In this document: in pieces, positions 12,682 through 37,655 of the stretch
Layout of the letters: the number at the start of each line of letters is the position of its first letter
Numbering within the stretch: the first letter of the stretch is position 1
Origin: Octopus sinensis
Lineage: Eukaryota
Direction of reading: 5' to 3'
Assembly: GCF_006345805.1 (NCBI RefSeq)
Contig: NC_043006.1
Location: 66,278,001-66,342,000, forward strand
DNA length: 64,000 bases
Position numbers and translations under genes: made by a program
Notes under the pieces: model-generated
Told to the model about the DNA's origin: nothing
The model's database searches: none
What the model saw: the letters and a program-made list of their open reading frames with translations, nothing else

Positions 12682-12748
<67 letters not shown>

Positions 12749-13234: not shown

Positions 13235-13267
<33 letters not shown>

Positions 13268-15416: not shown

Positions 15417-15452
<36 letters not shown>

Positions 15453-15453
15453 C

Positions 15454-15532
<79 letters not shown>

Positions 15533-15932
15533 GGGATAGATGGATAGATGGATAGATGGATATATAGATGGATAGATAAAAAGAGAGAAAGAAAGAAGAC
15601 AGGAAGAGAGAGAGATGGGAGGTTGATACGGTGGAGGGATACGTAAGAGAATGTGCGTGAGACAGAGAGGGAGAGATAGCACAAGTAAATGAGAAGAGGC
15701 AAACCAAAGAAAGATCATGGAAGGGGTAATTAGAGAGATAACGCGATAAAATAAAATACAGAGAAGAAGTGAATGAGAAGAAGGACGTTAGAGATAAAGG
15801 GAGTGAATGAGAAATTCATATATGCAAATCTCAACAGCTATACACACCCACAGCCCTTCAACCTGTAACTAGTTTGATAAGGACAAATTCACAAAACTCT
15901 CGAACCTTGGGTCACCCTCTTGCTTATATATA

Positions 15933-16333
15933 TAATACAATTAAGGGCCCCTAAATTAGGATGCCGAGTGTTGGGAACACAAACCTCGATGGGAACACAA
16001 ACCTCGTTGGGAACACAAACCTCGAGGCTGCAGACCTCGATTCAATTTAGGCGACTCGCTGATGAAGCCAGCCTTAGCAAACATATTTTGTGTTTTGCTA
16101 GAAACTGATCGGTTCGAGTTGTTAAAGTTATCGGTAAACGTTTTTGATTTTCACTCTCGATAAATTCATCCCCTTTTTGTGTTCCCAACACTCGGCATCC
16201 TAATTTAGGGGCCCTTAATTGTATTACTACATGAATAATATTTTTCTATATGAATAATATTTTGTCTTATGACTAATTCGTCTTTTGTGCTGGGCACCTG
16301 AGTAAATAATATTACTACCTTCTTGTTTATATT

Positions 16334-16337
<4 letters not shown>
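15933..16337 (+). mobile_element. Non-coding HHR retroelement (retrozyme/Penelope-like), family C
   Basis: Perfect 51-bp inverted repeat at 15933-15983 / 16176-16226, three gggaacacaaacctcg units, an internal HHR, and TA runs on both sides. Confidence 0.7.
16050..16123 (+). ncRNA. Type I hammerhead ribozyme motif (C)
   Basis: Stem I ggcgactcg/cgagttgtt; CTGATGA at 16059-16065; 9-nt insert then stem II tagcaaa/tttgcta; GAAA at 16101; quasi-palindromic stem III ctgatcgg; GTT triplet at 16112-16114. Confidence 0.75.
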
Positions 16338-16390
<53 letters not shown>

Positions 16391-16884
16391 CATATATATA
16401 TACATACATACATACATACATACATAATACATACATACATACTGCATGCATACATACATGCATAAATGTATACATGTATATAAATATACCAGAGTAATTA
16501 TATTTGTATGGACGATCATACTGAAGATCTACAGATAAATTGCGTAAGTAAAATTACGTAATTTGTTGATAGTGAAACATTTGTTTATGCTTAATCTATA
16601 TTTTTGTTACTTTTATTTGTCTTGCTCGCTTACGTTTCTGGTGTTTGCTAAATTTTCTAGAGAACAATTCTTAGTGGTAAGACCAAAGCGGATCTTCTTC
16701 TAGCGTAAGGGTTTCCACATAGTGGTAATCCACTTTTATATGTATGTAATACTATTTACTGAACCTCAGTTTTTTAATATGCTAGACCACTGGTGTTAAA
16801 TTGATGTTATCAAATTAATATCCAATTTTTCACCCTCATTTTAATTTTAATATATATGTATATATGTACATTCATACATATGAT

Positions 16885-16925
<41 letters not shown>

Positions 16926-17876
16926 TATGTATGTTATTAAACATATAGAAAGTGGTAATGCAATAACTAGCAGAGATATAGAGAGTGAGTGAATAACGGA
17001 GAGGATGACAGCGGTAAACAAAGAGAGGGAGAGAGAAGCATATAAAGTGGAGCAATGAGGGAGGGAGAGATGAAAGAACTGAGTATGTGAGTCTGTGAAA
17101 ATAATGAGTGATAATGTAGTGAAGACAAAAGAAACATGAACGAAGACGAAATGAAATAAGAAAACTGAGAAAAGCTTGACGTAATATGTGTTAAGTATTA
17201 CTGAAAGGCAGCCGAAAAAAGACCCCGTCATTTTCTACCGGTACTGCACTAGAAATTAATAAAAGTCTTGCGAAATAAAAGTACTGTATACTTGGTGTAT
17301 TATGTAGTATATTTATAAGAAAATAATAAAACTGATATTTGTCAATGGATAAAACCCCATCAGTTTTTACGGGTATTGCTCTAGAAACAAATATAAGTTT
17401 TGTGTAGTTCTCTTTACGTTGTGTAATAAACGGTATGATTATATGAAGACAATAAAATGGATATTCGTCAAAAGATAAATTTATAACCATCATCATGTCG
17501 CCATTTGTAAAAAGAAAAAAATAATAGAGAATGTGCTGCAAACAAGTGAACTGTTAACCAATCATCAATATGATGATTGGCTAACAAATATATATCACAA
17601 GACGCCATTTGTAAACTTTGGATGTGAGATGATAAATGTACATTGTATAGGCCTGGATTTTGAATGGATTGTAATAAATCATAAACCGTTTGAGTTGAAA
17701 TTGTAAAAAAAAAAACCCTCTCACTGTGATTTATAATATGACGACCTTTCGAACTTTATCCGTAAAATATGGCGCATAGAGTTCAAAGCAAACTTCACCA
17801 GTTGAGTGTGAAAGGTAGACAAGTATTATTGCAGGCATAGCTGTGTTTTTAAGAAGTTATACACACACACATACAC

Positions 17877-17910
<34 letters not shown>

Positions 17911-17999
17911 GCACATATATATATATAGATAATACAGATAGATAGATAGATACATACATATATACATACAAACATGTATATATATATATATACACACAC

Positions 18000-18205
18000 A
18001 CTTAAATATAATTAATTCCCAAAAGCAACGGAAAAACACAAGAAAAACAACAACACGAAGATGTGGTACATGCAAAGTATTAATAAAAAGCTCAGGGAAG
18101 GAAAGAAAGGGTCTTTTACGTTTCGAGCAAAGCTCTTCTTCGGAAACAGGAGACAGAAAAAAGTCCAAGAGAAAAGAAAGCCGGAGGGAAAAAATCGCCA
18201 ATAAA
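18000..18205 (-). mobile_element. Penelope-like terminal remnant with a degenerate minimal HHR
   Basis: Minus strand 18112-18148 reads ttt CCGAAGA a gagc-ttt-gctc GAAA cGTA aaa; related to 19480-19765. Confidence 0.55.
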
Positions 18206-18208
18206 ATC

Positions 18209-18237
<29 letters not shown>

Positions 18238-18241
<4 letters not shown>

Positions 18242-19468
18242 AGTTGGGCAAAATAATGGAAACACCTAAAATCATAACATCATAATTATGAAATATCTAT
18301 AAAACCGCCAAAAGTTTGTTTATTTTTATATTTTTGGGTTTATTATTAGTGTTGCTTAATATGTTTAGCTAAAATTGCTGTTTCTTTTTAGGTTATCATC
18401 AGGAAATGGTAATTAAAATTCATTGAAATGACAGATCTATGGGACTTTCAAAGAGGTCAAGCTATTGGTACTCACATGGAAGGCGCTAGCGTAACGAAAA
18501 CAGCTGAAATGTTTAGTGTATCAAGAAGTACTGTGTCGAAAGTAATGACAGCCTTTGAGATAGAGGGAAAAACCTCCTCGTAGAAACAAAACTCGGGAAG
18601 AAAACCAAAAGTTTCAGATAGGGACCGTCGGACTCTTACGCGAATTCTTAGAAAGAATCCCTAAAGTACAGCTTACAAAATTACTGCAGAGCTTCATGAC
18701 TACCTTGAGAACCCAGTTTCCACAAAATTTGTTCGTCGGAAGCTGCACAAAGCCGGATATCACGGGAGGGCTGCAATCAGAAAACCACTACTTTCAAAAA
18801 CAAACGTTGCAAAGCGTTTAGCGTGGAGTAAAAACCTACAGAATTGGTTCCTAGAGCAGTGGAAGAATGTTTTCTCGGACGAGTCATCCTCTACCTTATT
18901 TCCGTTCACCGGCCGAGTATACGTGTGGAGGCAATCAAAAGAAGCATTTGACCCAGACTGCCTTCTTTCAACTGTTAAACATGGAGGAAGATCTGTGACG
19001 ATCTAGGGGGCTATATCTTGGAAATCCGCCGGCCTAATGGTTTTCCTTCATGGCAGAGTTAATAGTCAAGACTATTCAAGCATTTTATCTGATCAAATTC
19101 ATCCCATGGTTGTGGAACTGTTTTCGGAGGGAAACGCAATCTTTCAGGATATTAATGCACCAATTCACACAGCTAAAGTTGTTACTGAATAGCACGAGGA
19201 ACAGTCTAGTGAAGTTGAACAGCTTTTCTGGCCACCACAGTCCTCAGATCTCAATATTATTGAACTTTTTATGGTGCATTTTAGAAAATCAAGTAAGGAG
19301 TCGATATCTTCCACCATCATCACCACAAGAACTAGAGATTGTTTTAACTGAAGAATGGACAAAAATTCCATTGCAAACAAAACAATTCAAACTTTATACG
19401 ATTCCATTCCTATTAAAAGAAATTTGCTTGAAATTTTAAGGTGTTTCCATTATTTTGTCCAACGTCTG
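18238..19468 (+). mobile_element. Tc1-like DNA transposon, full length, decayed transposase
   Basis: TIRs gttgggcaaaataatggaaacacct / aggtgtttccattattttgtccaacgtctg in TA context; FSDES, QDINAPIH and WPPQSSDLNIIE motifs with in-frame stops. Confidence 0.93.
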
Positions 19469-19479
19469 TATATATATAT

Positions 19480-19762
19480 ATAAAACGGGAAGCTTTACAA
19501 AAATAAACAAAAGACGAAGACAGGTGGAGTACAAACAAACAATTGTATTAGTATGGCGCTCAGGAATAGAAATAAAACAAGTCTTTTACGTTTCGAGCCT
19601 ACGCTCTTCAACAGAAAGATACACAGAAAAGAAACACGGAGAGAAACAAGGAGAGAAAAAAATGCGTGCAGGAGCTAACGATTCAGCATGGCGGTCTGAT
19701 TTCAGCCAGAAGTCAGAGATCAGACGTTAGACGCAAGAGGGATAGTAGCGGAGATAACAGGG

Positions 19763-19765
<3 letters not shown>
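19480..19765 (-). mobile_element. Penelope-like terminal remnant with a minimal type I HHR
   Basis: Minus strand 19582-19619 reads tcttt CTGTTGA a gagc-gtag-gctc GAAA cGTA aaaga, with a perfect 5-bp stem I; embedded in (TA)n. Confidence 0.65.
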
Positions 19766-19804
<39 letters not shown>

Positions 19805-19968
19805 ATATATATATATATACAAAAAATGGAATAAGAACGCAACTGACAACACATCCGGATAGGTAGATACAAAGACGGACAGGAAATAAAAAGGACGGAT
19901 CATATATACATACATAAAAGTAAAGAAATATATATACATACATAAATATATATGTATGTACATATGCG

Positions 19969-20000
<32 letters not shown>

Positions 20001-20089
20001 TGTATGTATGTATGTATGTATGTATGTGTGCAGATTTGTATGTTTTATGTATGTATTCTCATGCATATAGTTACATATTTAGACATGCT

Positions 20090-20662
20090 CATATATATTT
20101 AAATGATAAACTCCTGGAAAGTTTTACAGATTTTTACAGTTCCAGTGATGGATTGGATCTGTAGCCTTCGAATTAGCTTTTCCTTTCTGGTTTTGAAAAG
20201 CCTAATTTCTCAAGATTGTTATTTAGACAGTGTGTTACATATCCCAGGGCCCCAATAATTACAGGTATAAACTTGTATTTGTAGTCTGGATAGAGTAACT
20301 GCAGATTTCTCAATAATTCAACATAGGCGTTCTCTTTTTCACTAATCTTCAGATTTATGTTAACATCCGCTGGGCAGCTAATTTCCACAACTGTGCACAG
20401 TTTCCCTTCTATTGTGCTTACATTTTATTGAGGTCTTCACTGGTGCATTCCACCACTACTCCTTGTTAATATGAGTGGGTATTGCTTCTACCATATTGTG
20501 AGTTTTTATTTCTTTGTGCTCGGGATTATCCTCTCGACGGATTTCATTATATAGTGTCCTAGCTACAACATCATGTCTCATCCGTAGATAATACCGTGAT
20601 GACATTTTCGGACAACTGCTTATGATGTGCGTGATATCTTCAGTGTGAACTGCACAAAGTCT
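20090..20662 (-). mobile_element. RLE non-LTR retrotransposon 3' fragment, third family
   Basis: HIISSCPKMSSRYYL..RHD and EISCPADVNI..KE..Y..IPVIIGALG; neighboured by (TATG/CATA)n rather than TAA. Confidence 0.85.
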
Positions 20663-21657
20663 GTCTGTCTGTCTTTCTGTATGTATGTATGTATGTATGT
20701 ATATGCACGAAGCAGTGACAGAAAGTTCAAAAAGATCAGAAATATTTGAACTAAAAGCTTCTCATTGCAGTTAGTCGAAGAACCAAAGAAAGTCTCGCTT
20801 CGGGCAAAAAGGTGTCAAAGCTCAGAGCACCTTCTATTGTTCATAATAAAGTTTGACTCGGCAAGCAAATATTAAATGAAGACTTTTTTCGGAATTCTTG
20901 ATGACACTCCCAAAAGCGTGACTAATGTGATATCGCACAAAATAACTTTTTACATCTGAAAATATCAACTGCTAATTCCTCTGAATTTCTCCAGAGCAGC
21001 ATAAAATGCGTCTTAATTTTATTTACGCTGACCTTGAAATTTAAAGAGAGAGATAACAGAAAAAGTGTTAATGAGTTCGATGAACAACTATGTCTGTGAT
21101 CACTTATTTTTTGTGATGTGTGTAACAAAAATGGATGTGACACTTTCAGGACAGTTATTTTCTATGTCTTCCACACAGTGTAGATATTGAAGACACTTTC
21201 CAAAAATCGATATCTGTTTCGAAAATGGACCCCTTCAACATAAATTTCCAGGTATATAGAGATTTCTTTGGGCATTCTAAAAGCTTTTGAAAACCCGTTT
21301 TGGTTTAACTTTCATAAGAGTGGATCAGTTTGTTGCACTTTATTCTCTCAGCTTTTTACTGACTTCGAACCAAAGGATATATGTCTCAAAAATGGTTGCA
21401 TTCGCGAATAAAAGAATGAGCTGACGGTTCGCAGAATTTAATTCAACTTATTTGTCTCGACTTACTCGTTTACTTGTTTCAGTCATTTGACTGTAGGCAT
21501 GCTGGAGCAGCGCCTTTACTCGAGCAAATCGACCCCAGGACTTATTCTTCCTAAGCCTAGTACTTATTCTATCGGTCTCTTTCCGAACCGCTAAGTTACG
21601 GGGACGTAAACACCAGCATCGGTTATCAAGCGATGTTGGGGAGACAAACACAGACAC

Positions 21658-21717
<60 letters not shown>

Positions 21718-21720
21718 ACG

Positions 21721-21796
<76 letters not shown>

Positions 21797-22694
21797 CATA
21801 TATACGACTGGCTTCTTTCAGTTTCCGTCTACCAAATCCACTCAAAACGTTTTGGTCGAAACTATAGTAGAAGACAATTGCCCAAGGTGCCAGGCAGTAG
21901 TCCAACGTATCGACCCCGGGTGTTTACTTGATCGTTCTCTTTTGCCGAACCGCTATGTTATGGGGACGTAAACACACCAACACAGTTACCAAGCGGTGGT
22001 TGGGGGCAAACACGCACACACACACATACACACACATGTATACGACGAGCTTCTTTCAGTTTCAATCTACCAAATTCACTCGCAAAGCTTTAGTCGGCCC
22101 GTGGCTGCAGGGTGTCACACAGTGGGACTGAACCCTGAACCGAGTGTTTGGGAAGCAAACTTCGTACCACATGGCCACGCCTAGAAAATGGGGAAATATT
22201 GCTATATAGTGGAGGACCAACAACCAGAAACTTACAGATCTTTACAATATGTAGAAAAGAAATAAATTCACATATGCTGTTCATCTCTTTCCCCACTCTT
22301 TGATGTAAATTCATACTTACAAACCCACCACAACTTAATCTAGAAGGGATTGTCTCCCCTTCGATAGTTGACCGCCAGGGGTATATGCACCACGCTATTG
22401 AGACAACTGACAGCCATATTAAAGGGAGCCCTCACTTATGAACACAAGGTAGATTGTGAAAATTATTAGGTGACGTTGAGCCAAAATCGCATCTGTAACC
22501 GTATGAATTAACCACATTTTGGGTAGGTTCCACTCGCACGTTATGTGCAGCCACAAGCCTGGGATTTTTCAAAGTTTGGAGGTCATCTTCATCACCCAAT
22601 CGCTTTATACGCTTCTCTCTGTGTATGTGTATGTGGCATATGTGTAATATGCGTTCATATACACACGTGTATGTGTGTCTGAATGTGTATGCTC

Positions 22695-22788
<94 letters not shown>

Positions 22789-23639
22789 ACATCTATCTGG
22801 ATTATGTATGTATGTTTGAATGTATGTATATATACATATATATATATACGCGCACGCAAATATATATATATATATAATATATGTATGTATGTATATAATG
22901 TGCGCATCATATATATTTATTTATACACACGCACACACATACACAAACATGCACACAAATACACACATATATATTTACATATATACATACATATATATAT
23001 ATATATATATACATACACAAACACACACACATATATGTATATATACATATGTATAAATAATGTGTATATAAATGTATGTATGTATTATGTATGTATGTAT
23101 GTATGTATGTATGTATGTATGTATGTATGTATGCATGTATGTGTGAATGTATGTATACACAGACATACATGCATACATATACCGTACACACAAGCAATTA
23201 ACCTGGCTTTCACATATAATATATATATATATATATGTAAGTTTGTATGTAAGTATAAAATTCGCCCTGCTCACCCGCTTCCCACCACCTCAGCTGTCAA
23301 CAAGTCTGGAGGTTTTGTCTTTATGTTTTGATAACTATCACTAGTGACGTCAATTAAAATGGCAGGCTGAAGTGTTAGCAACAAGATGGCGGCGGCTGTT
23401 ATGTCTGTGTATCTCCCCGATAGGAAGGAATTCGCTCATACATACTTTCTAACTGGACTAATACGATGCATGTGTCTTGCTGAATATAAACTGGGTTTAT
23501 AATACGAGCAGACGGTTGTAAACATCCACATTAAAATATAATTCATTCTAATTTTGGCACAAGGCCAGCAATTTTGAGGGTTGGGGGAAGTCGATTACAT
23601 CGACCATAATATGTAGATTACATATAAAGAAATACACTA

Positions 23640-24340
23640 ATTGGATGCTGTTTTATCTTTTGCGTATTTTTTCTCTTACAATGGCTTATGGAGCACAATA
23701 AGGCTACGCGTTTGCAAGAACTGGAGATTGCTAAGAAATGCCTTATAAACAAAAGGAGACAGTGAAGCCGTTGGAGTTCCAAGATGCAACCGAAAATGTA
23801 GATTATGTCCATATTTTTGTGGGAGGCATCACGCGTATGATTAGCAGCTGCCCCAAAATGTCATCAAGGCACTACCTCTCTATACGACATGACTGTCGCA
23901 AAAACAATAAAATCTATCCAGGAATAAATATAGAGAATCTCACTGTTTTTAAATGCATACACATCACAATACTAGTGGAACATTCCCTTCAAAACAACTG
24001 ACAAGTGTAAGGATAGCAGGTCGGATATTGTTGTTTGGTACAGACATGAGAAGGTATGTACGTTCATAGAGGTCAGCCGTCCTGAATATCTCTTTGAAAA
24101 TGAAAGAAAAAGACGACAACTATGAACAACTGCTTCGAAACCTCCGGCTTTTATATCCAAGTTATAAATTCACATATATATCAATAATAACTGGTGCATT
24201 TCATTTAGTAAGTAAATGCTCAAGTGGGATTTTCAGAAAAAGAAATCTACCAGCTAACTCGTGCATTACAAATGAAATCTGTAAATGGAACCGTAAAAAT
24301 ATGCAAGACATTTCCCAAGTTTAATTGTGATATTTTCATT
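23640..24340 (+). mobile_element. Decayed copy related to the 20090-20662 RLE family
   Basis: ISSCPKMSSRHYLSIRHD, SDIVVW..FIEVS and NYEQLLRNLRLLYPSYKFTYISIITGA. Confidence 0.8.
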
Positions 24341-24445
24341 ATCTACATTGCATCGATGGAGCTTTGTATCTTTGTTAGAAACTAGTTCCTTCCTCAGAAG
24401 AAGAATATAAATAATTAAAAACAGAAGCGAACATACTCGCAAGCA

Positions 24446-24484
<39 letters not shown>

Positions 24485-24869
24485 CCCGGAGCAAAATATG
24501 GCCAACTTGGGTTCTTAGGAAGAAAATGCAATTCCTTAATTCATTCAATCGTGGTGTCTGGAACAATAAAAACATTCAAGATTTTCTTAAGATTTAAAGG
24601 ATAATAAACAAAACAAGATGCTTTCTTTTACAACCTTTGCTATCAAGTGAGTAGCCGGTCAATATGAATTTTAAATTAAAAAAAGGGGAGGGGGTAAGAA
24701 AACATACTTATATACATATACATATACATATGTACATACATGCATATATACACATACTCACACATACTCACATACACACACACACACATACATATATACA
24801 TAACATTCTTCACTGTCCGTATGTAACGGTATGGAAGATTCTGGATTGGCTAAATTATTGTTGATGTCA

Positions 24870-25400
24870 AAGAGAGAGAGAGAGAGAGAGGGGGGAGAAA
24901 CAGAGTGAGAGAGAGAGGATAGAGAGAGAGAAAGAAAGAGAGAGAGGATGGAGAGAGAGAGAAAAAGAGAGAGGATGGAGACAGAGGAGGGATGAAGAGA
25001 GATGGAGAGAGGATGGAGAGAGAGGGTGGAGAGAGAGAACGAGAGAGAGGATTGTGAGTGAGGATGGAGAGAGAGAGAGATAGGATGGAGAGAGAGAGAT
25101 AGGATGGAGAGAGAGAGAAAGAGGTGGAGAGAGAGAGAGAAAGAGAGAGAGTATGGAGAGAGAAGGGATGAAGAGAGAGGATGGAGAGAGAGAGATAGAG
25201 ATAGAGATAGAGAAAGAGGGGAGAGAGAGAGAGAAAGGATGCAGAGATATGATGGAGAGAGAGAAAGAGAGAGATGATGGAGAGAGAGAAAGAGAGGAAG
25301 AGAGAGGGGATAAAGAGAGAGAGAGGGGGGCTAAGAGAGAGAGAGGAAGAGTGAGAGGATGAAAAGAGAGAGGATGAAGAGAGAGACAACCGGAGAGGTA
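24870..25400. repeat. (GA)n-rich polypurine tract with gaggatggag subunits
   Basis: About 530 bp of almost purine-only sequence on the + strand. Confidence 0.9.
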
Positions 25401-25692
25401 GGCAGGCAGAGAAGGTAGGCAGGCAGGTGAGTGGTGAGTCAGCGCGATAAGGAAAGTGAAAGCACAGCGAGAGATCAAACAGATTTTTTTCGACCACGTA
25501 GACCCAAGTTTACATAAAATAAAGGCACAGACACGCACACACACACACGCACACACACAGATACACACACACACGTATATATTGTATATGATAGCATGCG
25601 CGCTCGTATCAGTATGTGAATTCGTGTGTGTGTAGGGAGGAGGCTGTGAAGATGATATATCTACATCAACCTTATACACACATTGTATGCGA

Positions 25693-25729
<37 letters not shown>

Positions 25730-26559
25730 CGTGCGAGCGTTCAAAATGTTATGTTGATACAAGCGTATTAATACAATGTGTTGATGTTCTTCTTTTCCAA
25801 TAACATAGGTAAATCATTATAGGTATAAATACCATTTATATACTGCAACGTGTGTGTGCGTGCGTGTGTGTGTGTGTGGTGTGTGTCTGTGAGTGTGTGT
25901 GTGTGTGTGTGTTGTGTGGAGAGAGTGTATATACCACCATCGCCATCACCATCGGCTACACTTCATGGTAGCCATTTTTTGTTTGTTTTTGTCCTCGTAA
26001 CTTAGCGATTCGGCAATAAATACCTGTAGAATAAGAACCAGATTTAAATATGAAAAACGTAAGTATGGGGCGAATTTGTTCGACTAAAACCCTTGAAGGG
26101 GATGTCCCAGCATGACTGAAACGAATAGAGGATAAATGACGAAAGAGAAAAATATGCCAAAATGACAAGAGTTCTTACTCAAACACTGCGATGTGATGAG
26201 ATTATTTCATATTACACCTGGAACGAAACAAATGGTCAACTTTGGGAAGAAATATGTTCCAGTTGAAGGCTTGAGTTATGTCAGATGGAATTACATTTTG
26301 GGAAATATCAATATTGTTCATGCCAGCCAGCTGGAATTTATCGACAGAAGGAGGCTCTTACGAAAAAGAGGAATAAAATCATTTCACCAGATTCGAACAG
26401 TGAATGGTCGTGTCTGTTACAAAATATTACTCAGTAGGAAGTAACAATGATAAAAGCCCTTTTTTATGATTTTTACAATTACCTTCAAAACTACTAAGCC
26501 TCTTTGCAGTCCTATTAAAACGTGGACTCTCAAAACCTCGATAAATCTAATATGGTGGT

Positions 26560-27100
26560 AATTTAATTTGGTTTAACAAGTAATGATGTTACTTGGAATG
26601 CGCATCTGTTGAAGTTTCTCAGTAAATATACTTATCGTACTTTCCATCATACAAACCGGATTTTTCAGACCCAAATTTATAGACCCACAAAGTAGGTCGA
26701 CTCAGACACGAAGGAGACTTTGGAGGAGGGAAAATTCCATGTGACCAACGAGAGAGAACGTTAGATGGATTTTTGTCTCATTGGGCATTGTCAATAATTT
26801 GTACAAACACCCAGCATAATTAGACGAAAGCAGTCATCGCTGATATATAACGAAGATAGTGATTAAGTAATCACTAGAGATGCAAACAGCCGGCTCGTAA
26901 AAAAAAAATCCGTTTTATGCAACAAACGAATTATTACAATAAAACATCCGTCCACACAAGAAAACACATAGTAACTGAATCCTCAACTTGTTCCATTTGC
27001 CAAAAGGTTTGCAAGACACCAGTAGGCCTCAAGAGACACGTTCGTGTCCATAGGACGTGAGCAATGCTTTATTTTACTGAACTCTTATTATCGCCCACGA
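26560..27100 (+). mobile_element. Old RTE-like LINE 3' end
   Basis: Terminal C2H2 motif CSICQKVCKTPVGLKRHVRVH followed by a stop at 26989-27060; upstream WNAHL and RPKF resemble RTE C-terminal motifs. Confidence 0.45.
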
Positions 27101-27136
27101 CAAGAAATCCATTATATATATATATATAATATATAT

Positions 27137-27173
<37 letters not shown>

Positions 27174-27303
27174 GTAAGAATAATTATTATTCATAAAATA
27201 ATAATGTCACTAGCCGCAAGAGTAAAAGCTGTACACACACACACCACACACACACACAGAGGCAAATAAGAAAACCGGAGAGGATATAAAATCGACAGAC
27301 ATC

Positions 27304-27403
27304 NNNNNNNNNNNNNNNNNNNNNNNNNNNNNNNNNNNNNNNNNNNNNNNNNNNNNNNNNNNNNNNNNNNNNNNNNNNNNNNNNNNNNNNNNNNNNNNNN
27401 NNN
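27304..27403. other. Assembly gap (100 N)
   Basis: Run of N. Confidence 1.
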
Positions 27404-27589
27404 CTTCACTCAACCCTCACACAAACTCCGCACCCTCTTCTGCCCTTCCTCACCTCCTACCACAGTGCTACTGCCATCGCCGCACTTCTTCCTCGTCCGG
27501 CGATTTCGTGTTGGCCTCACTTTTGCTCCCCCTACCGTCCTGATGCTTCGTGAATCCTCCGCACAATGGAAGTTTTTCGCTACCCAGTA

Positions 27590-27785
27590 CAGTAATCCGT
27601 CGCCACATCCCGCGATTCACCAATCACGGTTTATTACTTAAGCTTACATCGATTCCTCCATGGTGTTGTTTTGCATTTATAATAAAATAGATATATGCAA
27701 ATTATAAAAATAACAAAAATATACACTACAGTACTGCTTCTAATTCGCGGATTTTTCACTTATCGTGGTGGGGTTTGGAACTTTA
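27590..27785 (+). mobile_element. Truncated Tigger/pogo-like MITE
   Basis: TA-cagtaatcc start; body matches 29339-29591. Confidence 0.7.
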
Positions 27786-27848
27786 TACATACATACATAC
27801 TACTACATACATACATACATACATACATACATACATACATACATGCTA

Positions 27849-27918
<70 letters not shown>

Positions 27919-28129
27919 ATTAATCAATATAGGGTGGCAAAAAATTTGCCACCAGCGGCCTAGTGGGAAAAAATTAAATAGTCATAGACCATTTTTAAGT
28001 TCAACATCACAATCAAGGAACGGCCATAATAGGCCATTCACCCACTAGAAATAACAGCCAAAAGCTTCAACCGCAAAATAACATCAATTCCGTAAACCAG
28101 GAGAAAATTAAAAAAACATTTACCTTGTA

Positions 28130-28236
28130 ATTTCTTATACGATGCACCGTTTCATCTACTGTTTAATGGTAAACTAACCTGATTAAATTAAATCAAGCCA
28201 ATCTACCATAGGCCCTTAGAATCATCAGTAAGAAAT
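28130..28236 (-). ncRNA. Type I hammerhead ribozyme motif (A, inverted copy)
   Basis: Perfect 8-bp stem I atttctta/taagaaat, CTGATGA, long stem II, GAAA cggtgcatcG TA. Confidence 0.8.
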
Positions 28237-28418
28237 TTTTTGCCACCCTATATTGATTAATTATGAATTTTCTGGTTAATTCCGTAATGGAATCGGCGGC
28301 TTATATTTATTTGCTGCCGATAATTTGGCGCGAGTGCGATGATTTGAAAATTTTAGGTCAGATATTGCCGAGGCAGGGACGGAAATGCCTCGTGAAAAAT
28401 ATCTGTTCCGACTTGGCT

Positions 28419-28524
28419 ATTTCTTACTGATGATTCTAAGGGCCTATGGTAGATTGGCTTGATTTAATTTAATCAGGTTAGTTTACCATTAAACAGTAGA
28501 TGAAACGGTGCATCGTATAGAAAT
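28419..28524 (+). ncRNA. Type I hammerhead ribozyme motif (A, unit 1)
   Basis: CTGATGA at 28427; 19-bp G:U-rich helix at 28446-28464 / 28471-28489; GAAA at 28502; GTA at 28515-28517. Confidence 0.8.
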
Positions 28525-28890
28525 TACAGGGTAAATGTTTTTTTAATTTTCTCCTGGTTTACGGAATTGATGTTATTTTGCGGTTGAAGCTTTTGGCTGT
28601 TATTTCTAGTGGGTGAATGGCCTATTATGGCCGTTCCTTGATTGTGATGTTGAACTTAAAATGGTCTATGACTATTTAATTTTTTCCCACTAGGCCGCTG
28701 GTGGCAAATTTTTTGCCACCCTATATGATTAATTATGAATTTTCTGGTTAATTCCGTAATGGAATCGGCGGCTTATATTTATTTGCTGCCGATAATTTGG
28801 CGCGAGTGCGATGATTTGAAAATTTTAGGTCAGATATTGCCGAGGCAGGGACGGAAATGCCTCGTGAAAAATATCTGTTCCGACTTGGCT

Positions 28891-28996
28891 ATTTCTTACT
28901 GATGATTCTAAGGGCCTATGGTAGATTGGCTTGATTTAATTTAATCAGGTTAGTTTACCATTAAACAGTAGATGAAACGGTGCATCGTATAGAAAT
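28891..28996 (+). ncRNA. Type I hammerhead ribozyme motif (A, unit 2)
   Basis: Same motif 472 bp downstream: CTGATGA at 28899, GAAA at 28974, GTA at 28987-28989. Confidence 0.8.
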
Positions 28997-29121
28997 TAAT
29001 TACAGGGTAAATTTTTTTTTAATTTTCTCCTGGTTTACGGATTGATGTTATTTTGCGGTTGAAGCTTTTGGCTGTTATTTCTAGTGGGTGAATGGCCTAT
29101 TATGGCCGTTCCTTGATTGTG

Positions 29122-29201
<80 letters not shown>

Positions 29202-29338
29202 TATATCATATATAGATATATAGATATATCATATATATATATATATATATATATATAACAATATGTATATACACGCGCACACATACACACACATACAACA
29301 CATAAATACATACATCTCCATACACACAAACATACATA

Positions 29339-29591
29339 CAGTAATCCTTCGCCATATCGCAGTTCACCTATCGTAGTTCACCTATCGCGGTTTACCAATC
29401 GCGGGTTATTATTTAAGCTTACGTCGATTCCTCCGTGGCGTTGTTTTACATTTATAATAAAATAGATATATACAAATCATAAAAAATAATGATAAAATAT
29501 ACAGTACTGTGCTGTTTCTACTTCGCGGATTTTCACCTATCGCGGGAGGCGGGGTTGGAAAGTAACACCCGCGATAGTCGAGGGATTACTG
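29339..29591. mobile_element. Tigger/pogo-like MITE
   Basis: TIRs cagtaatccttcgccatatcgc / gcgatagtcgagggattactg; subterminal ttcacctatcgc repeats. Confidence 0.8.
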
Positions 29592-29656
29592 CATCATTAT
29601 TCTGTACCAACACTGTCATACGATGCGGCCAGCGTTCTCCAACTCCCACTGTGAAT

Positions 29657-29955
29657 ACGCGTAGCTTAGTGGTGAGGGGTATTCGGATCACTATCGTGAG
29701 TTCGATACTCGGCAGGCGCATTGTGTTCTTCAGCATGACACTTTGTTTCACGTCACTCCGAAATGAGTTGCACCTGTATTTCGGAGGAGCAACCTTGTTA
29801 CATTCTGGGCCTTGCTGAAACTCCTTAATCACTACGTCAAGGTTACACGAGTCTGTGGAGCGCTCAGCCACTTGCGCATAAATTTCACGAGCAGGCTGTT
29901 GTTCCGTTGATCGCATCAACGGGAACGCTTGTCGTCGTAACCGACGGAGGGCCAG
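29657..29955 (+). mobile_element. tRNA-derived SINE, family 4
   Basis: A box tagcttagtgg, B box gagttcgatac and tail gtcgtcgtaaccgacggag; related copies at 51730-51940(+) and 56488-56785(-). Confidence 0.75.
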
Positions 29956-30554
29956 TTCTTCCCCAGCTACAGCAATCTTTCTCTCCGCCACAAATCCATT
30001 TGTCCACTACGGGTCTGTTCTATTATCATACTCTTGTTAGCTACAGATATAGAACCGATTTTCCGGACACTGATGATCCGGAATTCATTACAAGCCGCAC
30101 TAATTAACACTGATTGTACAGATATTTCATTTAATTCTTTTATTCTTTCTTTTCCCCCTTTACTTCTTTCAGTCACTTAACTGCGACCATGCTGGAGCAC
30201 CATCATTAGTCGAACAAATCGACGCCAGGACTCATTCTTTGTAAGTAAGCCTAGTACCTATTCTATCGGTCACTTTTGCTAAACCGCTAAGGGACGCTGA
30301 CGTAAATGCACCAACATCGGTTGTCAAGCGATGATGGGGGTGGGGACAAACACAAACACAAACATACACACACATACATATACATATATACGGCTGGTTT
30401 CTTTCAGTTTCCATCTACCAAATCCACTCACAAGACTTTGGTCTACCTGAAGCTATAGTAGAAGACACTTGTCCAAGGTATCACACAGGATTGAACCTAG
30501 AACCATATGGTTGGTAAGCAAGCTACTTACCACACAGTCATTCCTGCGCCTGAT

Positions 30555-31162
30555 ATGAGTTTACGCTGAAGGAAAAGAAGGAGATTATCGATGCTGCGGA
30601 AAACGTTATTGTCGGGCCCCTCGTATCATTAGTAATATCTGATACAAGTTACCGCCCCTTGTATTGTCCGACATGTTTAACTCTAGAAGAAATAGCAAAG
30701 GAGGTAATGCATAACGAAGAGCTGGTGGAAAGTGAAGACGACGAGGTAATTGTGGAAGAGGAATACGTTTCGTTTGCAGATACCCAGAGAGCATGGAGCA
30801 CTATCCGAAAGTTTATGCAGCAGCAGAGCAGCGGAAAACCCAGCGTCATGCAGGCGTGTGATAGGCTAGACAACGAAATGAATGAAATCCGCCGAAAGAA
30901 GATGCGTCAGCCGACAACTTTTGAGAGCTTCGTGATTAACTAAAAGCAATCTGAACTTAATAAACTTGGATGTCTTCTTTTTACCATTGCATTGAACTTC
31001 TTATTGGCCTTACTTCCTACCCTATGGATTTTTATTCGCATGTTCAGTAAATTTTTTGGTTATGTAGTGTTTAGATAACAGACCCTCGGTACTATGTCAC
31101 TCTCGGTACTATGCTACTTTGGCTCAGTCCCGCAGGGTGGCATAGTAGCGAGAGTTGACCGT
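30555..31162 (+). mobile_element. pogo/Tigger-like transposon deletion derivative
   Basis: ORF 30659-30943 has an acidic tract and a KKMRQPTTFESFV C-terminus typical of Tigger transposases; right end tagtagcgagagttgaccgta is followed by TA. Confidence 0.6.
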
Positions 31163-31171
31163 AATATATAT

Positions 31172-31218
<47 letters not shown>

Positions 31219-32118
31219 TATATATAATATATATATATATATACATATATAATATATGTAAAAGTAAAAAAATACAAACTGGGACAAGAAGGTGAAACAT
31301 TAGAAGACGACACAAAAAACACGGACGGGACATTCGAAGCCTTCAATCTTCAGTCAAGAACCGGATCATCCTCGCAATTTGTCAACCAAATCCACTCACA
31401 AGGCTTTGGTCGGCCCGAGGCTAGAGTAGAAGACACTTGCCCAAGGTGCCACGCAGTAAGTAAATTTAACATTTGTTTAACTTAAAAGGCGGTGACTTGG
31501 CAGAATCGTTAGCACGCCGGGCTCGTCCGCCTTTACGTTTTAAGTTCATATTCCAGCGAGGTCGACTTTGCCTTTCGTCCTTCCGGGGTCGATAAAATAA
31601 GTAACAGTTATGCACTGAAATCGATGAGATCAACTTCCCTCCCCTCTCCGAAAATACAGGGCCTGCGCCAAAATTTGAAGCTAATATTTCTTTAATTTAG
31701 AAGGTGCTGAATAAGGTGGCCAACCCGTGCTCGGATAAATAATCCCGAATCGTTTTGAAACCAAAAGCTCTGACTGGGCTCCTCTGTCATAGTGCCGCTT
31801 TGGTACCGTAGTGCTCGCTACGTCATTAGTCCTCTTCCCCATCTCTATCTTTCCCTACCTCGGCTGTAATTTTATCCTGCATCCCAATTCCTGCTCCACC
31901 ACCGCCACCATCGCCATTATCAGAAGCACAACCACCTCCACCAACAAGAGCTTCACTGCTGCCACCGTCCTCACTGTCACCAGCACCATCTCTACCGCCA
32001 CCACCATCACCTCAACGACGTCGGCCACCACCACTATGACGACAACGACGACTATCACCACCTTCAGTACCCCCACTGCTATTCCTGCTGCCACGGCTAC
32101 AATTGTACCCCACTGCTC

Positions 32119-32169
<51 letters not shown>

Positions 32170-32204
32170 GCCTGCCTGCCTGCCTGTCTGCCTGTCTGTC
32201 TGTA

Positions 32205-32240
<36 letters not shown>

Positions 32241-32683
32241 CTATTATCATCAAAGGTTTTATCCTTGTTTTCGCCAAAGTATCTTTCCCGCCATCCTTAC
32301 ATTCTGGTCCAGCTACCGCTATATTATGCACCAGCACCAGCAGCAACAGCAGCAGCAGCACCACCACCGCCACCCACTACCCCCTCCACCGCCACTGTCC
32401 TATACTGCGATTCCCCCCCTATATCACCACCACCACAGTTGTCCCCCATTTCCGCCACAGTCTTGTCTCACTACCGCTAGTCTGGCATTACCCCCCCCCC
32501 CGCTCTCGCCACAGTCCTACTAGATTTCCCAGCACAAATAACGTCCTTTTTCCAATGCTTAGAGCCCTTCCCTGCCAGAATGCAGTCTTACCCCACCAGC
32601 ACAAACACAACCCTGCCCCACCAGCACGAACATAGTCCTGCCCTCACTTTCACCACCGCCCTCAGACCTACAACTACCACCCT

Positions 32684-32734
<51 letters not shown>

Positions 32735-32757
32735 ACAAACACACACACACACACACA

Positions 32758-32797
<40 letters not shown>

Positions 32798-33470
32798 CCA
32801 TCTTAGCAAAACCAGTGTTCTCTCCTCTGTAGTACACAACTCATTCTGTTTGTACAAACCGCTAAATCTTTACAATAAATAACAGCTTTAAACAAACATG
32901 GTGTCGCTACTGATAAATATGCACATCACGTGACAAACTGTCCCCCTCCCCCCCTATCTCTGTCCTTGTTGTTGTGGCTGCTATACTCGTTGTTATTGTT
33001 GTTATAAAGCTTATTGTACTTTGGGTATTTACTGAGGCTGTAGGAAACTATCTTTTGCTCTTTTACTCTCTTGTTTCAGTCATTTGACTGCGGCCATGTT
33101 GGAGCACCACCTTCAGTCGGAGTAATCGATCCCAGGACTTATTATTCTTTGTAAGCCTAGTACTTATTCTATCGGTCTCTTTTTGCCGAACCGCTAAGTT
33201 ATGGGGACGTAAACATGCCAACATTGGTTGTTAGGCGATGGTGGAGGGACAAACACAGATGCACAGACACACACACTCACATATATATGGGCTTCTTTCG
33301 GTTTCCGTCCCCCAAATCCACCCCCAAGGCTTTGGTCGGTCCGAGGCTATAGTCGAAGACACTTGCCCAAGGTGCCATGCAGTGGGACTGAACCCGGAAC
33401 CATATGGTTGGAAGCAAGCTTCTTACCACTCAGTTGTATTTTCTCTTTGTGTTTTCATGTTTGGATTAAC

Positions 33471-33502
<32 letters not shown>

Positions 33503-33516
33503 AATATATATATATA

Positions 33517-34273
33517 TAAGAATGAATGTTTTTATATATAATGAACGTGAAATACAGGAAGGGACGACACGGAACACAGACAAATCATTCGAAGCTTCAA
33601 TCTTCAGTCAGACCACCGAATCATCATAGCAAATTTCGGCTGTTCAATTCTGATATTTGCTCCAACTCGGCCAGCCCCAAGAAAAAAAAAAAAACTAAGC
33701 TGTAAGCATTAGATTTCTTGGTAGAAGACAGGAATGTGAACGCACAAGACGGATGTAAATACAAGAGACGAAAACGAAATTGAAAACAGTAATGAATAAC
33801 AAAATATATATAACGGTGGTTGTCATACGACTTTAGACCAAATGAGACAAAAACAACAACAACATAGCTGGCGTAGAAATAATTACCGTTTCGGTAGCGG
33901 GGACACATGTGGTCGAGATACGATGGCCAACAGAATGGTTTAAGAAGCAGCAGGTTGCAGGAGAGAGAGAGAAAGAGAGCAGAGAGAGAGGGAATCAAAG
34001 AGGGTGGAAGGCAGGGGACAGAATCAGTGACCAAGAGAAAAGAGAAGAAGGGATTAAGGAGGATGGGAGGAAGAGGGGAGGAGGATGGGAGGAAGAGAGG
34101 GGAGAATCGGAGGGCGCCAAAAAGTTTGGTGAAGAAGCAATGGCGGGTAGGAAAGACAGTGTGTATAGAAGTCGTGCAGGGTTTAAAATTGGACAAACAA
34201 ACGGGGGGGGGGGTGCACGTAACGCCGCAATAATATAAGAATGAATGTTTTTATATATAATGAACGTGAAATA
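33517..34273 (-). mobile_element. Non-coding element with a 38-bp terminal direct repeat (Penelope-like)
   Basis: taagaatgaatgtttttatatataatgaacgtgaaata occurs at 33517-33554 and 34236-34273; inside (TA)n; related fragments at 31260-31385 and 10250-10400. Confidence 0.6.
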
Positions 34274-34279
34274 ATATAT

Positions 34280-34311
<32 letters not shown>

Positions 34312-35118
34312 CACATGTATGTATATGTATGTGTGAATATATATATATGTATATGGGCTTATTTGTGCGCAGTGTATAATAAAAGGCGGGTAAGTAGTGA
34401 ACGAAGTGATTAGATCCATGCATAAATGCTGAGAAGGAGGAGCAAGAGGATACAACTCTGCCCGTCCCCTTCTGCACTCCCCTCTTCCTCCGATTTTTGG
34501 AGTGGATTAGCCACATGCAGAGTGGATTAGTTTGATGGAGATGAACGGCGAAGAACGAAGAGACATACCCCACTCATAGCAGCTTTTGACATTGCAAGCA
34601 CATGCGAAACATCGAAGAGAAGCCACCATTTTTAATACACTAAGTGGATCAGTCACACACGAGTGAACCAATTACAATTAAATTTCACAAGAAGTGTAAC
34701 CCACAGGAGGTCTTCTGAAGTTTTTGAACTGAGATTTACCGAAGAGTCTTTTAATTAATTAAATACCAGAAGAGTTTAACCAACCACGGTTGATAGCGTT
34801 CTCTCCAAGAATTCTATCTTAGCAACCAACTAATCCTGACTCATTGTTCGCGCTTGTGCTTACACCAGGAGGATATCGCCGTGTAATATACAATATCGTG
34901 TGACATGGCCAAACAAGCGTCAGACAAGATTGACTGGAATATTATAGTAGGAGCTCTTTTGCTCTGAAGCTAAAGATATTCATGTCATGTCAGAGCGAAG
35001 CGTGAGGGTAATAATACATCTCTTGTTTTCAGGAAAGCCAGAACAAAACACGAGGTAAATACGATATGAGATTATATATATCTATAATGGAATAATTACT
35101 ATGAAGCATTGTGTAGAA

Positions 35119-35240
35119 TATATTGTATAAAGGATCGTGAGTAAGGCCAGAACTATGCGAAGTAAATACAAGGCAAATCCCAAGGTTTATGATTTGCCTT
35201 GCATTTACTTCGCGTTACTCATAATCTTTTATACAGTATA
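35119..35240. mobile_element. Short palindromic (fold-back) MITE-like element
   Basis: gcgaagtaaatacaaggcaaatc / gatttgccttgcatttacttcgc, plus outer arms at 35119-35144 / 35215-35240. Confidence 0.65.
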
Positions 35241-35688
35241 TATATATATATATAACTTTGACAGGTTTCGGTCAGTATATATAGGCCCAGGCTATGTCTA
35301 ACTTAATAGCACCACCTGATGAAATCTTTTTGTCATATATGAGGCATCATGGCCCACTCTAGCAAAGAGTTATTATTGTTGGAGACATATCCGGGTGTAG
35401 GAGGTTGGTCTGGGTTTCTTTGAAGAAATTTGTCGAGTGGACATTTGAATTTCATGGGATCTCTTTCCGTTTTGACATATTTTGGTATGGTATTAAAGAG
35501 AACTAGACCGGTTGAGGTAAAGTAGTTGTGACTTAATGTAGCTATATGTACCGAGTTCGATTTTTGTAGTGGGCGGATAGCACGGGGCCAAGTCTCGGAT
35601 GGATTTTAAAATTGATGCCAACATCATTTGTGCAATATTGATGGAAAATTTTCCACATCACACAAATGATGTCGCACTCCCGGTGGTG

Positions 35689-36633
35689 TTGAACATTTAT
35701 GGTACATTTTAGAAAAACAAGCAAGGAGTCAATATCCTCTACCATCATCACTACAAGAACTGGAGACTGTTTTAGCTGAAGAATGGACAAAATTCCTTTG
35801 GAAACAATTCAAATTTTGTACGAGTCCATACCTCGTAGAATTCAAGCTGTAATTACTGCCAAATAAATTTGTTTGAAATTTTAAGGTGTTTCCATTAATG
35901 ATATAGTTTTCCAATCTTATTGCTTTGAAGGTATGATTTTGGGGAGATAAAAATTGGAGGAAAAAGTTATAGAGGTTTAAAAATTGAAAAAATTGTAATT
36001 TTAGCCAATAGCGAGGCAGAAATTTTCTGCATTTAGCGGGGCGGTGTCAACTTTAAGGTTGTACCCTGTGATATTTATAGTTTATCGTCTGTGAAATGAC
36101 CTCTTCATTGTAGGTTTCTTAATAAACAGAAATACCAAATAAATCAACATCTTACTGTTTCTTTTGTCTCTCATTGATTTTTATTTGTATTTTTTTAATT
36201 TGTTATATTGATATATTTATCTGTATGTGTTTACTTTATGCGTATTTCAGTATTATGTATACCTGTCATGTGTTTGTGTACATCATTAATATATAAATGC
36301 ATGTGTGTGTGTGTGTGTGAAAAGGGGGCGTCTGTCTCCAAGACTACAAAGTTGAGTAACGTTTTCATGCTTGGATTTGTAAACTACAATAAGAATAACA
36401 AAGAATTTGTCTCCAAAATATATGAAATGAAATATATGTAAAAATACTAACACGCAGAAAAAAGCAAAGAAAAATATATAATATACTAACACAGAAAAAT
36501 GAAAACAAAACACGCGGGTGAAAAGAATCTCGTGGTGTGAAGATTCAACACAGAACAACGTGCGGCACAGACACGGGTGAAGTGAAACACAACACAGCGT
36601 GTGGTTGTCATGGTAACAAGCTGCTAATGCCAC
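35689..36633 (+). repeat. About 945-bp dispersed duplicate of 40966-41911 (Tc1 3' end plus flank)
   Basis: Near-identical with a few substitutions and indels; ends exactly at the family B element. Confidence 0.9.
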
Positions 36634-37614
36634 CAGCGTGGGTTAAAATTGACAAACACCATGTATTAACGGTGAAAACCGCAGCATTTAGCAGAGAGAG
36701 ATGAATTATAATTTCAACAATTGAGGGTAAAATTAATTAATTATTAATCAATTTCACCAAGTATTCAGTATGTAAAGGGACCATTATAGGCAAATTCAAA
36801 ATATTACATTATATATAAGGGCTTAGTAAAATAAATTACTTTGCCACATACTGAACTCATTAGAAATAGCAGCTAAAGAAATTTCTTCAGCTATTTCTAA
36901 TACTTAAAGAAGATCTCTCTCAGATTGTGTTTGCCTAAACCAACTCACAAAAGTATGGGGGAAAAAACATTAAAAAATCAAGTGCAAAGGTTATTTGAGA
37001 ACGTACGTTTCTAGATTAGTCAATTCGTAATTAATTAATTTTACCCTCAATTGTTGAAATTATAATTCATCTCTCTCTGCTAAATGCTGCGGTTTTCACC
37101 GTTAATACATGGTGTTTGTCAATTTTAACCCACGCTGGTGGAAAGGGGAGAGCAGAAATTCTTCGCTTGCATATTCGAATTTGATAGCACTTTTAGTTCG
37201 AGCAGAATTCTAGAGGTGATTAGAAGCCGAAAGGGTATGCTCCCGACTTTCAGTGTTCCCAAATCCGATTCAAGGAATTCTGAGCTGAAGAAAGAAATGT
37301 CGAATTGACTAATCTAGAAACGTACGTTCTCAAATAACCTTTGCACTTGACTTTTTAATGTTTTTTCCCCCATACTTTTGTGAGTTGATTTAGGCAAACA
37401 CTATCTGAGAGAGATCTTCTTTAAGTATTAGAAATAGCTGAAGAAATTTCTTTAGGTGCTATTTCTAATGAGTTCAGTATGTGGCAAAGTAATTTATTTT
37501 ACTAAGCCCTTATATATAATGTAATATTTTGAATTCGCCTATAATGGTCCCTTTACATACTGAATACTTGGTGAAATTGATTAATAATTAATTAATTTTA
37601 CCCTCAATTGTTGG
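36630..37614 (+). mobile_element. Non-coding HHR retroelement (retrozyme/Penelope-like), family B: inverted arm plus a 557-bp unit with terminal redundancy
   Basis: 36630-37027 is inverted; the forward unit 37028-37613 begins and ends with taattaattaattttaccctcaattgttg; (TA)n on the right. Confidence 0.8.
37281..37332 (+). ncRNA. Type I hammerhead ribozyme motif (B)
   Basis: tgag CTGAAGA (37285)...weak stem II...GAAA (37317), palindromic cgtacg, GTT at 37326-37328, then ctca. Confidence 0.7.
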
Positions 37615-37616
37615 AA

Positions 37617-37655
<39 letters not shown>

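What the first reader, a model, noticed from the sequence alone, without database searches (positions are those of the whole stretch)
15933..37614. Three distinct non-coding hammerhead retroelement families share one architecture
Seen: elements C (15933-16337), A (27917-29123) and B (36630-37614) have different sequences and no useful ORF. Each has an inverted partial copy on the left, a type I HHR with a (quasi-)palindromic stem III (ctgatcgg, cggtgcatcg, cgtacg), a TA-microsatellite flank, and a motif at or near unit ends: gcccttaattgtatta / accctatattgatta / accctcaattgttga. A and B also share tgYtatttctaRtgRgt (28598, 37457) and cgctggtgg. Known: Penelope-like elements (PLEs) carry type I HHRs and insert as inverted-plus-tandem repeats, and metazoan non-LTR retrozymes are tandem HHR repeats that give circular RNAs. 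Inference: this is a diversified retrozyme-like group mobilised in trans by a PLE RT/GIY-YIG protein that recognises the shared motif. I do not know of a description in cephalopods, but I cannot check that.
Basis: partly seen in the sequence, partly recalled or inferred. Interest (0 to 1): 0.9.

Follow-up and report, generated by a model that had tools for sequence, protein, structure and literature searches.

The report
Hammerhead retrozymes sharing a start-site fold
Three unrelated-looking, protein-free repeats here are copies of abundant jumping elements that carry a self-cutting-RNA motif and insert as two back-to-back arms ending at two fixed points; a small predicted RNA fold at those points, shared with one protein-coding Penelope-type jumping gene, likely tells the borrowed copying enzyme where to start.

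Summary
A (~489 nt), B (~557 nt) and C (~445 nt) are dispersed non-coding families (2,273, 959 and 321 exact hammerhead-core matches; controls 0). They form tandem arrays up to 17 units in (TA)n. Each family has two fixed 3' ends, E1 and E2, 100-115 nt apart. All 67 two-armed insertions with both ends canonical (including a fourth family, D) use E1 on one arm and E2 on the other. Of seven autonomous Penelope-like families tested, only a young Hydra-clade family (960-aa ORF) has it. Corrections: window copy C lost part of stem II; B's left end is a rearrangement; A, C and D are distantly homologous; the shared 9-mer is not homologous. The general idea (retrozymes are non-autonomous Penelope-like elements; internal start sites make the tail) is published, and this scan noted it earlier elsewhere in this genome. 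New here: the cross-family fold and a named partner candidate. Cleavage, expression and circles are untested.

The parts
15933..15983 (-). Family C inverted arm, 3' end at site E1, in TA run
15972..16025 (+). Three 18-bp repeats at the arm junction
16027..16337 (+). Family C forward arm (0.7 unit), 3' end at site E2, then TA run
16050..16123 (+). C hammerhead; this copy lacks the 3' strand of stem II (10-nt deletion); predicted cut after 16114
16194..16226 (+). C E1 module: predicted G-C-closed hairpin, CT, AT-rich spacer
16295..16337 (+). C E2 module, degenerate in this copy (small deletions against family)
27917..28236 (-). Family A inverted arm, 3' end at E2, in TA run; holds a hammerhead with intact stem I (core 28228-28222)
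28233..29123 (+). Family A forward arm, 1.9 units of 472 bp, 3' end at E1, then TA run
28419..28525 (+). A hammerhead 1 (core 28427, GAAA 28502, GUA site 28517; U.U at base of stem II; 1-nt deletion in stem I)
28891..28997 (+). A hammerhead 2 (core 28899, GAAA 28974)
28606..28693 (+). A domain: predicted closing helix (28606-28613 with 28686-28693) enclosing the E1 hairpin (28615-28636) and E1 site
28694..28738 (+). A E2 module: linker, GGU..ACC hairpin (28700-28720, loop shortened in this insertion), CT, 15-nt spacer
36630..37027 (-). Family B inverted arm; non-canonical end joined to a duplicated genomic segment
37028..37617 (+). Family B forward arm (1.05 units), 3' end at E2, then TA run
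37281..37332 (+). B hammerhead (core 37285, GAAA 37317, GUU site 37328; A.A at base of stem II)
37473..37564 (+). B domain: predicted closing helix (37473-37482 with 37555-37564) enclosing the E1 hairpin (37483-37508) and E1 site
37565..37617 (+). B E2 module: linker, 15-bp GGU..ACC hairpin (37570-37602), CT, spacer
16521..16851 (+).
   Evidence: blastn 72%, E=2e-8; nhmmer E=2e-7

Best explanation
A, B and C are high-copy non-coding hammerhead repeats that sit in (TA)n as head-to-head arms ending at two fixed sites, and they are likely copied there by the reverse transcriptase-endonuclease of a Penelope-like element, most likely of the Hydra clade. Shown: dispersed families, tandem units, variable 5' ends, two fixed 3' ends used one per arm, TA targets, conserved cores, and young intact Hydra ORFs with the same insertion rule. 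Predicted: each unit folds a domain with a hairpin + CT + 10-16 nt ahead of each end. Inferred: the protein (predicted dimer in PMC11167929) binds this domain, nicks both strands of a TA repeat, and primes one strand at E1 and the other at E2 inside the RNA. Two 5'-truncated cDNAs are then joined head to head. Tandem units come from a multimeric or circular template; the palindromic stem III would let neighbouring units cleave as dimers and release monomers. Odds: PLE-mobilised 0.9; Hydra clade 0.65-0.7; the 960-aa family F6 or a close relative 0.45.
For: Copy numbers. 67 of 67 two-armed insertions with both ends canonical are E1+E2, none E1/E1 or E2/E2; 196 of 199 canonical ends are TA-flanked. 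The same rule holds in autonomous Hydra-type families F6 3/3, F7 9/9, F8 8/8. F6-F8 carry the Hydra diagnostics of PMC8557442 section 11. Module met at 8 of 10 non-autonomous ends and 1 of 13 autonomous end contexts (F6 E2); shuffled null 21/1380. In a scan of 2,906 TA-run starts, 103 had the strict module: 78 A/B/C or B-like, 11 F6 or relatives, 2 family H, 12 others, none at a sense-strand end of F1, F2, F4, F5, F7, F8. Opposed extra bases at the base of stem II (U.U in part of A, A.A in B and C) also occur in F8 and in most published Hydra hammerheads. C stem III changes sequence and length but stays self-complementary. Tails of 97-130 nt are nearer Hydra F6-F8 (about 70-170 nt) than Neptune-type F1 and F4 (about 30 and 56 nt, few copies). 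Both arms share array-specific variants.
Against: No sequence homology between A-D and any autonomous 3' region. F6 meets the module at E2 only, and family D failed at both ends (its E2 hairpin did fold). With a 1.5% null, one hit in 13 contexts has about an 18% chance under the loose test. Hydra F7 and F8 lack the module. A Neptune-type family (F2) also has U.U at the base of stem II, and Neptune-type families also target TA with intact ORFs. Only 150 of 11,583-19,342 Hydra-like candidates were scored per search, so the true partner may be unsampled. My prediction that family H would have GGU..ACC at E2 failed; it has a GAC..GUC hairpin. B and C stems II are weak (B fold -4.3 kcal/mol; C's did not form in the MFE), and B cuts at a GUU triplet. 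One 17-unit A array mixes two unit types, which a single monomer circle does not explain.
Confidence: 0.68

Rival explanations
1. Same mechanism, but the protein comes from a Neptune-type or other non-Hydra PLE (F1, F2, F4, F5); the hairpin-CT module serves RNA folding or stability, not recognition.
For: These families are young, have intact RT + GIY-YIG ORFs and end in TA; F2's hammerhead has U.U at the base of stem II.
Against: 0 of 7 end contexts have the module; tails are shorter where measured; the module sits at a fixed distance from both ends in unalignable families.
Confidence: 0.2
2. The units are ordinary pseudo-LTRs, or truncated 3' ends, of autonomous PLEs not yet sampled.
Against: Arrays of up to 17 units run from E2 to the next hammerhead with no ORF between; no Hydra ORF abuts an arm in the loci screened.
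Confidence: 0.06
3. DNA-level amplification (satellite, rolling-circle DNA element) or fold-back assembly artefact; the hammerhead is a passenger.
For: Array homogeneity also fits local expansion; no RNA evidence was obtained.
Against: Arms end at two different fixed sites with unrelated flanks; junctions vary; the same rule holds in RT-encoding elements; stem III stays palindromic across variants.
Confidence: 0.04

Closest known systems
Metazoan non-LTR retrozymes (PMC7229834; bioRxiv 10.64898/2026.07.22.740005)
   Same: Non-coding, low-GC tandem units with one type I hammerhead each; highly paired predicted monomer (circular-fold z -6.5, -6.1, -2.1 for A, B, C); coexist with PLEs; a U.U stem II base is described for axolotl.
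   Different: Units 445-557 nt (170-400 nt in PMC7229834; 51-972 bp in the preprint); stem II up to 68 nt. Head-to-head arms, TA targeting and paired ends are not in the PMC7229834 main text (0 hits for inverted or microsatellite). No homology to an autonomous pLTR was found, unlike 24 of 57 Xenopus families that matched known TEs, nearly all PLEs.
Hydra-clade PLEs (PMC8557442, incl. Hydra-1_Obim)
   Same: (TA)n target, inverted 5'-truncated copy, hammerhead near the 3' end with opposed extra bases at stem II; published Hydra-1_Amil ends in a motif like C's E2.
   Different: A-C have no ORF; the supplement has no hit for nonautonomous or non-autonomous; the tail is about 100 nt rather than 30-40 nt; F6 is about 5.6 kb against under 3 kb.
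Poseidon_Ac internal initiation (PMC11167929)
   Same: Two internal RT start sites define the tail; AT-rich target; predicted dimer.
   Different: That study saw no difference in start site between strands in vitro; here the two arms use different sites in 67 of 67 cases, and each site has its own hairpin.
Non-autonomous Chlamys elements such as MRC1 (PMC8557442)
   Same: Non-autonomous PLE derivatives with head-to-tail insertions.
   Different: They share 3' sequence with autonomous families, and most Chlamys lack canonical hammerheads.

Membership tests
Non-LTR retrozyme | Tandem non-coding units of a few hundred bp | tested here: met
Non-LTR retrozyme | Type I hammerhead core in consecutive units | tested here: met
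   CUGANGA in 86/86 A, 58/61 B, 48/53 C copies that matched the flanking anchors; not detected by Rfam
Non-LTR retrozyme | Self-cleavage in vitro | not testable with these tools
   needs transcription assay
Non-LTR retrozyme | Expressed as circular and linear monomer RNA | tested here: inconclusive
   only assembled contigs were available
Non-LTR retrozyme | Highly self-paired monomer | tested here: met
   weak for C (z -2.1)
PLE-type insertion | 5' truncation, partial tandem, inverted copy, one-sided tail | tested here: met
Autonomous PLE | RT + GIY-YIG ORF | tested here: not met
   longest stop-free frame 56-62 aa
pLTR of a known or sampled autonomous PLE | Sequence homology to an autonomous terminal repeat | tested here: not met
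   seven families; Dfam/Repbase not available
Hydra clade (for partner F6-F8) | RWK-like, DKT, CxCX5C linker, CxxC and CxH around E and N, (TA)n target | tested here: met
   F8 has EKT and a degenerate linker; no phylogeny with published sequences was run
Non-autonomous partner of Hydra PLE | Mobilised in trans by the Hydra protein | not testable with these tools
   inferred from shared module, hammerhead type and insertion rule

The most novel reading that the evidence does not exclude
Unalignable retrozyme families keep a sequence-independent RNA domain with two hairpin-CT start modules, like the template-defining part of telomerase RNA. A dimeric Hydra RT-endonuclease reads it to prime both strands of a TA repeat from one, possibly circular, RNA, each strand at its own module. 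This fold, not sequence, is what lets a non-coding RNA hijack one PLE lineage.
Probability: 0.35. Interest if true: 0.75.

Novelty: new variant of a known kind. Interest (0 to 1): 0.52.

Why it matters
How PLEs build inverted insertions with a one-sided tail, and how retrozymes get reverse-transcribed, are named as open in PMC8557442 and in the 2026 preprint. These families give short natural substrates, a strict end-pairing rule from many insertions, a candidate recognition fold that varies in sequence across families, and young intact candidate enzymes. One in vitro assay of the kind in PMC11167929 could test it. PLE RTs are sister to telomerase, so a structure-defined internal template would be of wider interest.

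Tried and rejected
Rfam: no hammerhead match. Expression: no RNA holder listed; contigs of guessed-RNA runs cover A and B but cannot show strand, ends or circles; no verdict. Partner by homology: none among F1, F2, F4-F8 3' regions or the decayed Hydra-1_Obim-like family. F3 was only read, not tested for the module. A B-like arm head-to-head with an F7 copy (L268) looked like co-mobilisation, but a TA spacer lies between, so it was set aside. B-like copies beside F1 copies (L106, L113) were read as nested TA insertions (L113 read; L106 from match coordinates only). The hammerhead-like match at 19348 lies at the end of a Tc1-like transposon and was taken as chance. Circle versus linear multimer template is not resolved. 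No covariance model or R-scape test was run; cross-family covariation rests on predicted folds. In one search the 5'/3' labels of minus arms were swapped in print; counts come from the corrected. Literature searches: searches found no paper on cephalopod retrozymes or non-autonomous Hydra elements; subscription journals and the preprint's supplements were not visible and may bear on this.
Full report
Observation. The three elements are at the stated places. Each has an inverted arm on the left and a type I hammerhead pattern. Searches of the own genome (G000, 2.7 Gb) show dispersed families with 92-100% identical best copies (about 1,300 candidates each, 39-40 scored). Exact core patterns give 2,273 (A), 959 (B) and 321 (C main variant) matches with 0 reversed controls, plus 22 matches to a pattern for longer C stems. 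Units are about 489, 557 and 445 nt with no stop-free frame over 62 aa. Arrays reach 17 units. The window copies are imperfect: C lost the 3' strand of stem II, A's forward units have a stem I deletion, and B's left end is fused to a 945-bp duplicate of 40966-41911.

Hammerheads. Among copies matching the flanking anchors, CUGANGA is intact in 86 of 86 A, 58 of 61 B and 48 of 53 C. Stem III is self-complementary; C variants change its sequence and length but keep this. Predicted self-duplexes are -9.8 to -17.5 kcal/mol against about 0 for hairpins. This fits the dimeric metazoan type (PMC4209133, passages). The base of stem II is A-U or U.U in A and A.A in B and C. PMC4209133 reports an extra base between positions 9 and 10.1 in PLE hammerheads, and the Hydra table of PMC8557442 shows extra bases on both sides in most rows (supplement part 2). 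Rfam does not detect them. B and C stems II are marginal in folding, so activity is uncertain.

Insertion rule. Each family has two fixed 3' ends: A 147 and 251, B 204 and 301, C 123 and 237 in unit coordinates. A fourth family D (535 nt; 1,568 matches, 1 control) has ends at 174 and 304. In 129 merged loci holding 133 insertions (best hits plus positional samples), 67 were two-armed with both ends canonical and all 67 pair E1 with E2; 19 had one other end (4 of these a recurring C site at 96-102 paired with E2), 7 ran off the fetched DNA, and 40 were single-armed. The D sample was anchored inside the tail, so it could miss short E1/E1 pairs; the A, B and C positional samples were anchored at the hammerhead. 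196 of 199 canonical ends are TA-flanked. This is the PLE signature: PMC8557442 (passages) describes an inverted truncated copy and a tail at one end, and PMC11167929 (parts 1-2 of 4) shows that the tail lies between two internal RT start sites.

Shared fold. Folding the four units shows the same layout: an 8-10 bp helix of different sequence in each family encloses an E1 hairpin and the E1 site; a short pyrimidine linker follows, then a hairpin closed by GGU..ACC, then CT and 13-15 nt to E2. A fixed test found the module at 8 of 10 non-autonomous ends (A, B, C and a fifth family H at both ends; D at neither) against 21 of 1,380 shuffles. The module was defined on A-D, so H is the only independent case, and its E2 hairpin is closed differently than I predicted. 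A, C and D are distantly homologous; B is not detectably so.

Partner. The genome holds young autonomous PLEs with intact ORFs. Four are non-Hydra (F1, F2, F4, F5; Pfam RVT_1 + GIY-YIG; 'Neptune-type' is my label from the zinc-finger linker, recalled, not tested by phylogeny). Three are Hydra-type (F6 960 aa, F7 717 aa, F8 727 aa) and carry the diagnostics of PMC8557442 section 11. F6, F7 and F8 obey the same end rule in 3 of 3, 9 of 9 and 8 of 8 two-armed insertions. Only F6's E2 has the module (1 of 13 contexts), and F6 relatives keep the hairpin with changed loops. In 2,906 TA-run starts across all held loci, which are enriched for these families by design, 103 had the strict module: 78 A/B/C or B-like, 11 F6 or relatives, 2 H, 12 others. 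F6 also has a long stem II and palindromic stem III. F8 has the A.A stem II base but not the module. No unit is homologous to an autonomous 3' region and no Hydra ORF abuts an arm. The partner is therefore inferred, not shown.

Template. Units within an array, and both arms of an insertion, share array-specific variants (A: 0.009 within arms, 0.027 between loci; C: 0.005 and 0.031; B too young to tell). This fits one source per insertion. One 17-unit array mixes two unit types, so a single monomer circle cannot explain all arrays. Read data gave no verdict.

What is known. PMC7229834 (parts 2-3 of 6 and passages) defines non-LTR retrozymes. bioRxiv 10.64898/2026.07.22.740005 (parts 1-3 of 5; supplements closed) argues that they are non-autonomous PLEs, in 35 genomes of vertebrates, insects and one coral. 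Five searches found no cephalopod retrozyme paper. Earlier notes of this scan, consulted after my analysis, report similar families, paired ends and Hydra links in this genome and a tail hairpin in another; they are not independent support.

Verdict. A real feature and a new variant of a known kind. PLE mobilisation is very likely, a Hydra partner likely, F6 a candidate. The cross-family start-site fold is the part worth testing. Interest 0.52.

Noticed in passing
window 35689-36633: About 945-bp near-exact copy of 40966-41911, joined to B's left arm at a 4-nt microhomology and starting inside a Tc1-like element; likely a templated repair event that replaced B's normal end.
   Followed up: partly
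window 16521-16851: Decayed relative of family D with a hammerhead-like core, 180 bp from C.
   Followed up: partly
window 28326-28352; also in C and D units: A motif TTTGGCGCG...ATTTGAA is kept in A, C and D between E2 and the hammerhead. It resembles E2F and CHR cell-cycle promoter elements (recalled, untested) and may be an internal promoter.
   Followed up: no
window 18243-19452 and 39994-41173: Two Tc1/mariner-like copies, 84% alike, with broken transposase frames.
   Followed up: no
L231-L235 (e.g. L232 1249-4131): Young Hydra-type family F6: 960-aa ORF with long Asn-rich inserts, 2.6-kb 3' region, 85-nt stem II; about twice the published Hydra length; no Pfam hit at E<0.1.
   Followed up: partly
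L121-L125 (L121 1374-2813): Family F1 has a separate upstream ORF of 479 aa with no Pfam match, and no canonical hammerhead was detected in its 3' region.
   Followed up: no
L263-L277: F7 hammerhead core reads CCGAAGA (U4 to C) in all young copies read, CUGAAGA in an older one (L242).
   Followed up: no
L123 6637, L124 1351, L126 944, L128 8021 and 8416, L137, L190 7896, L266 4700-7501: Many further hammerhead families with palindromic stem III turned up by chance in flanks; H (L266, about 477-nt unit) has the same two-armed layout.
   Followed up: partly
L268 2129-4620: B-like arm ending at E1 head-to-head with a truncated F7 copy ending at E2, separated by about 15 nt of TA; nested insertion or mixed-template event.
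   Followed up: partly
L194 (17-unit A array): Two unit types alternate irregularly, with some recombinant units.
   Followed up: partly
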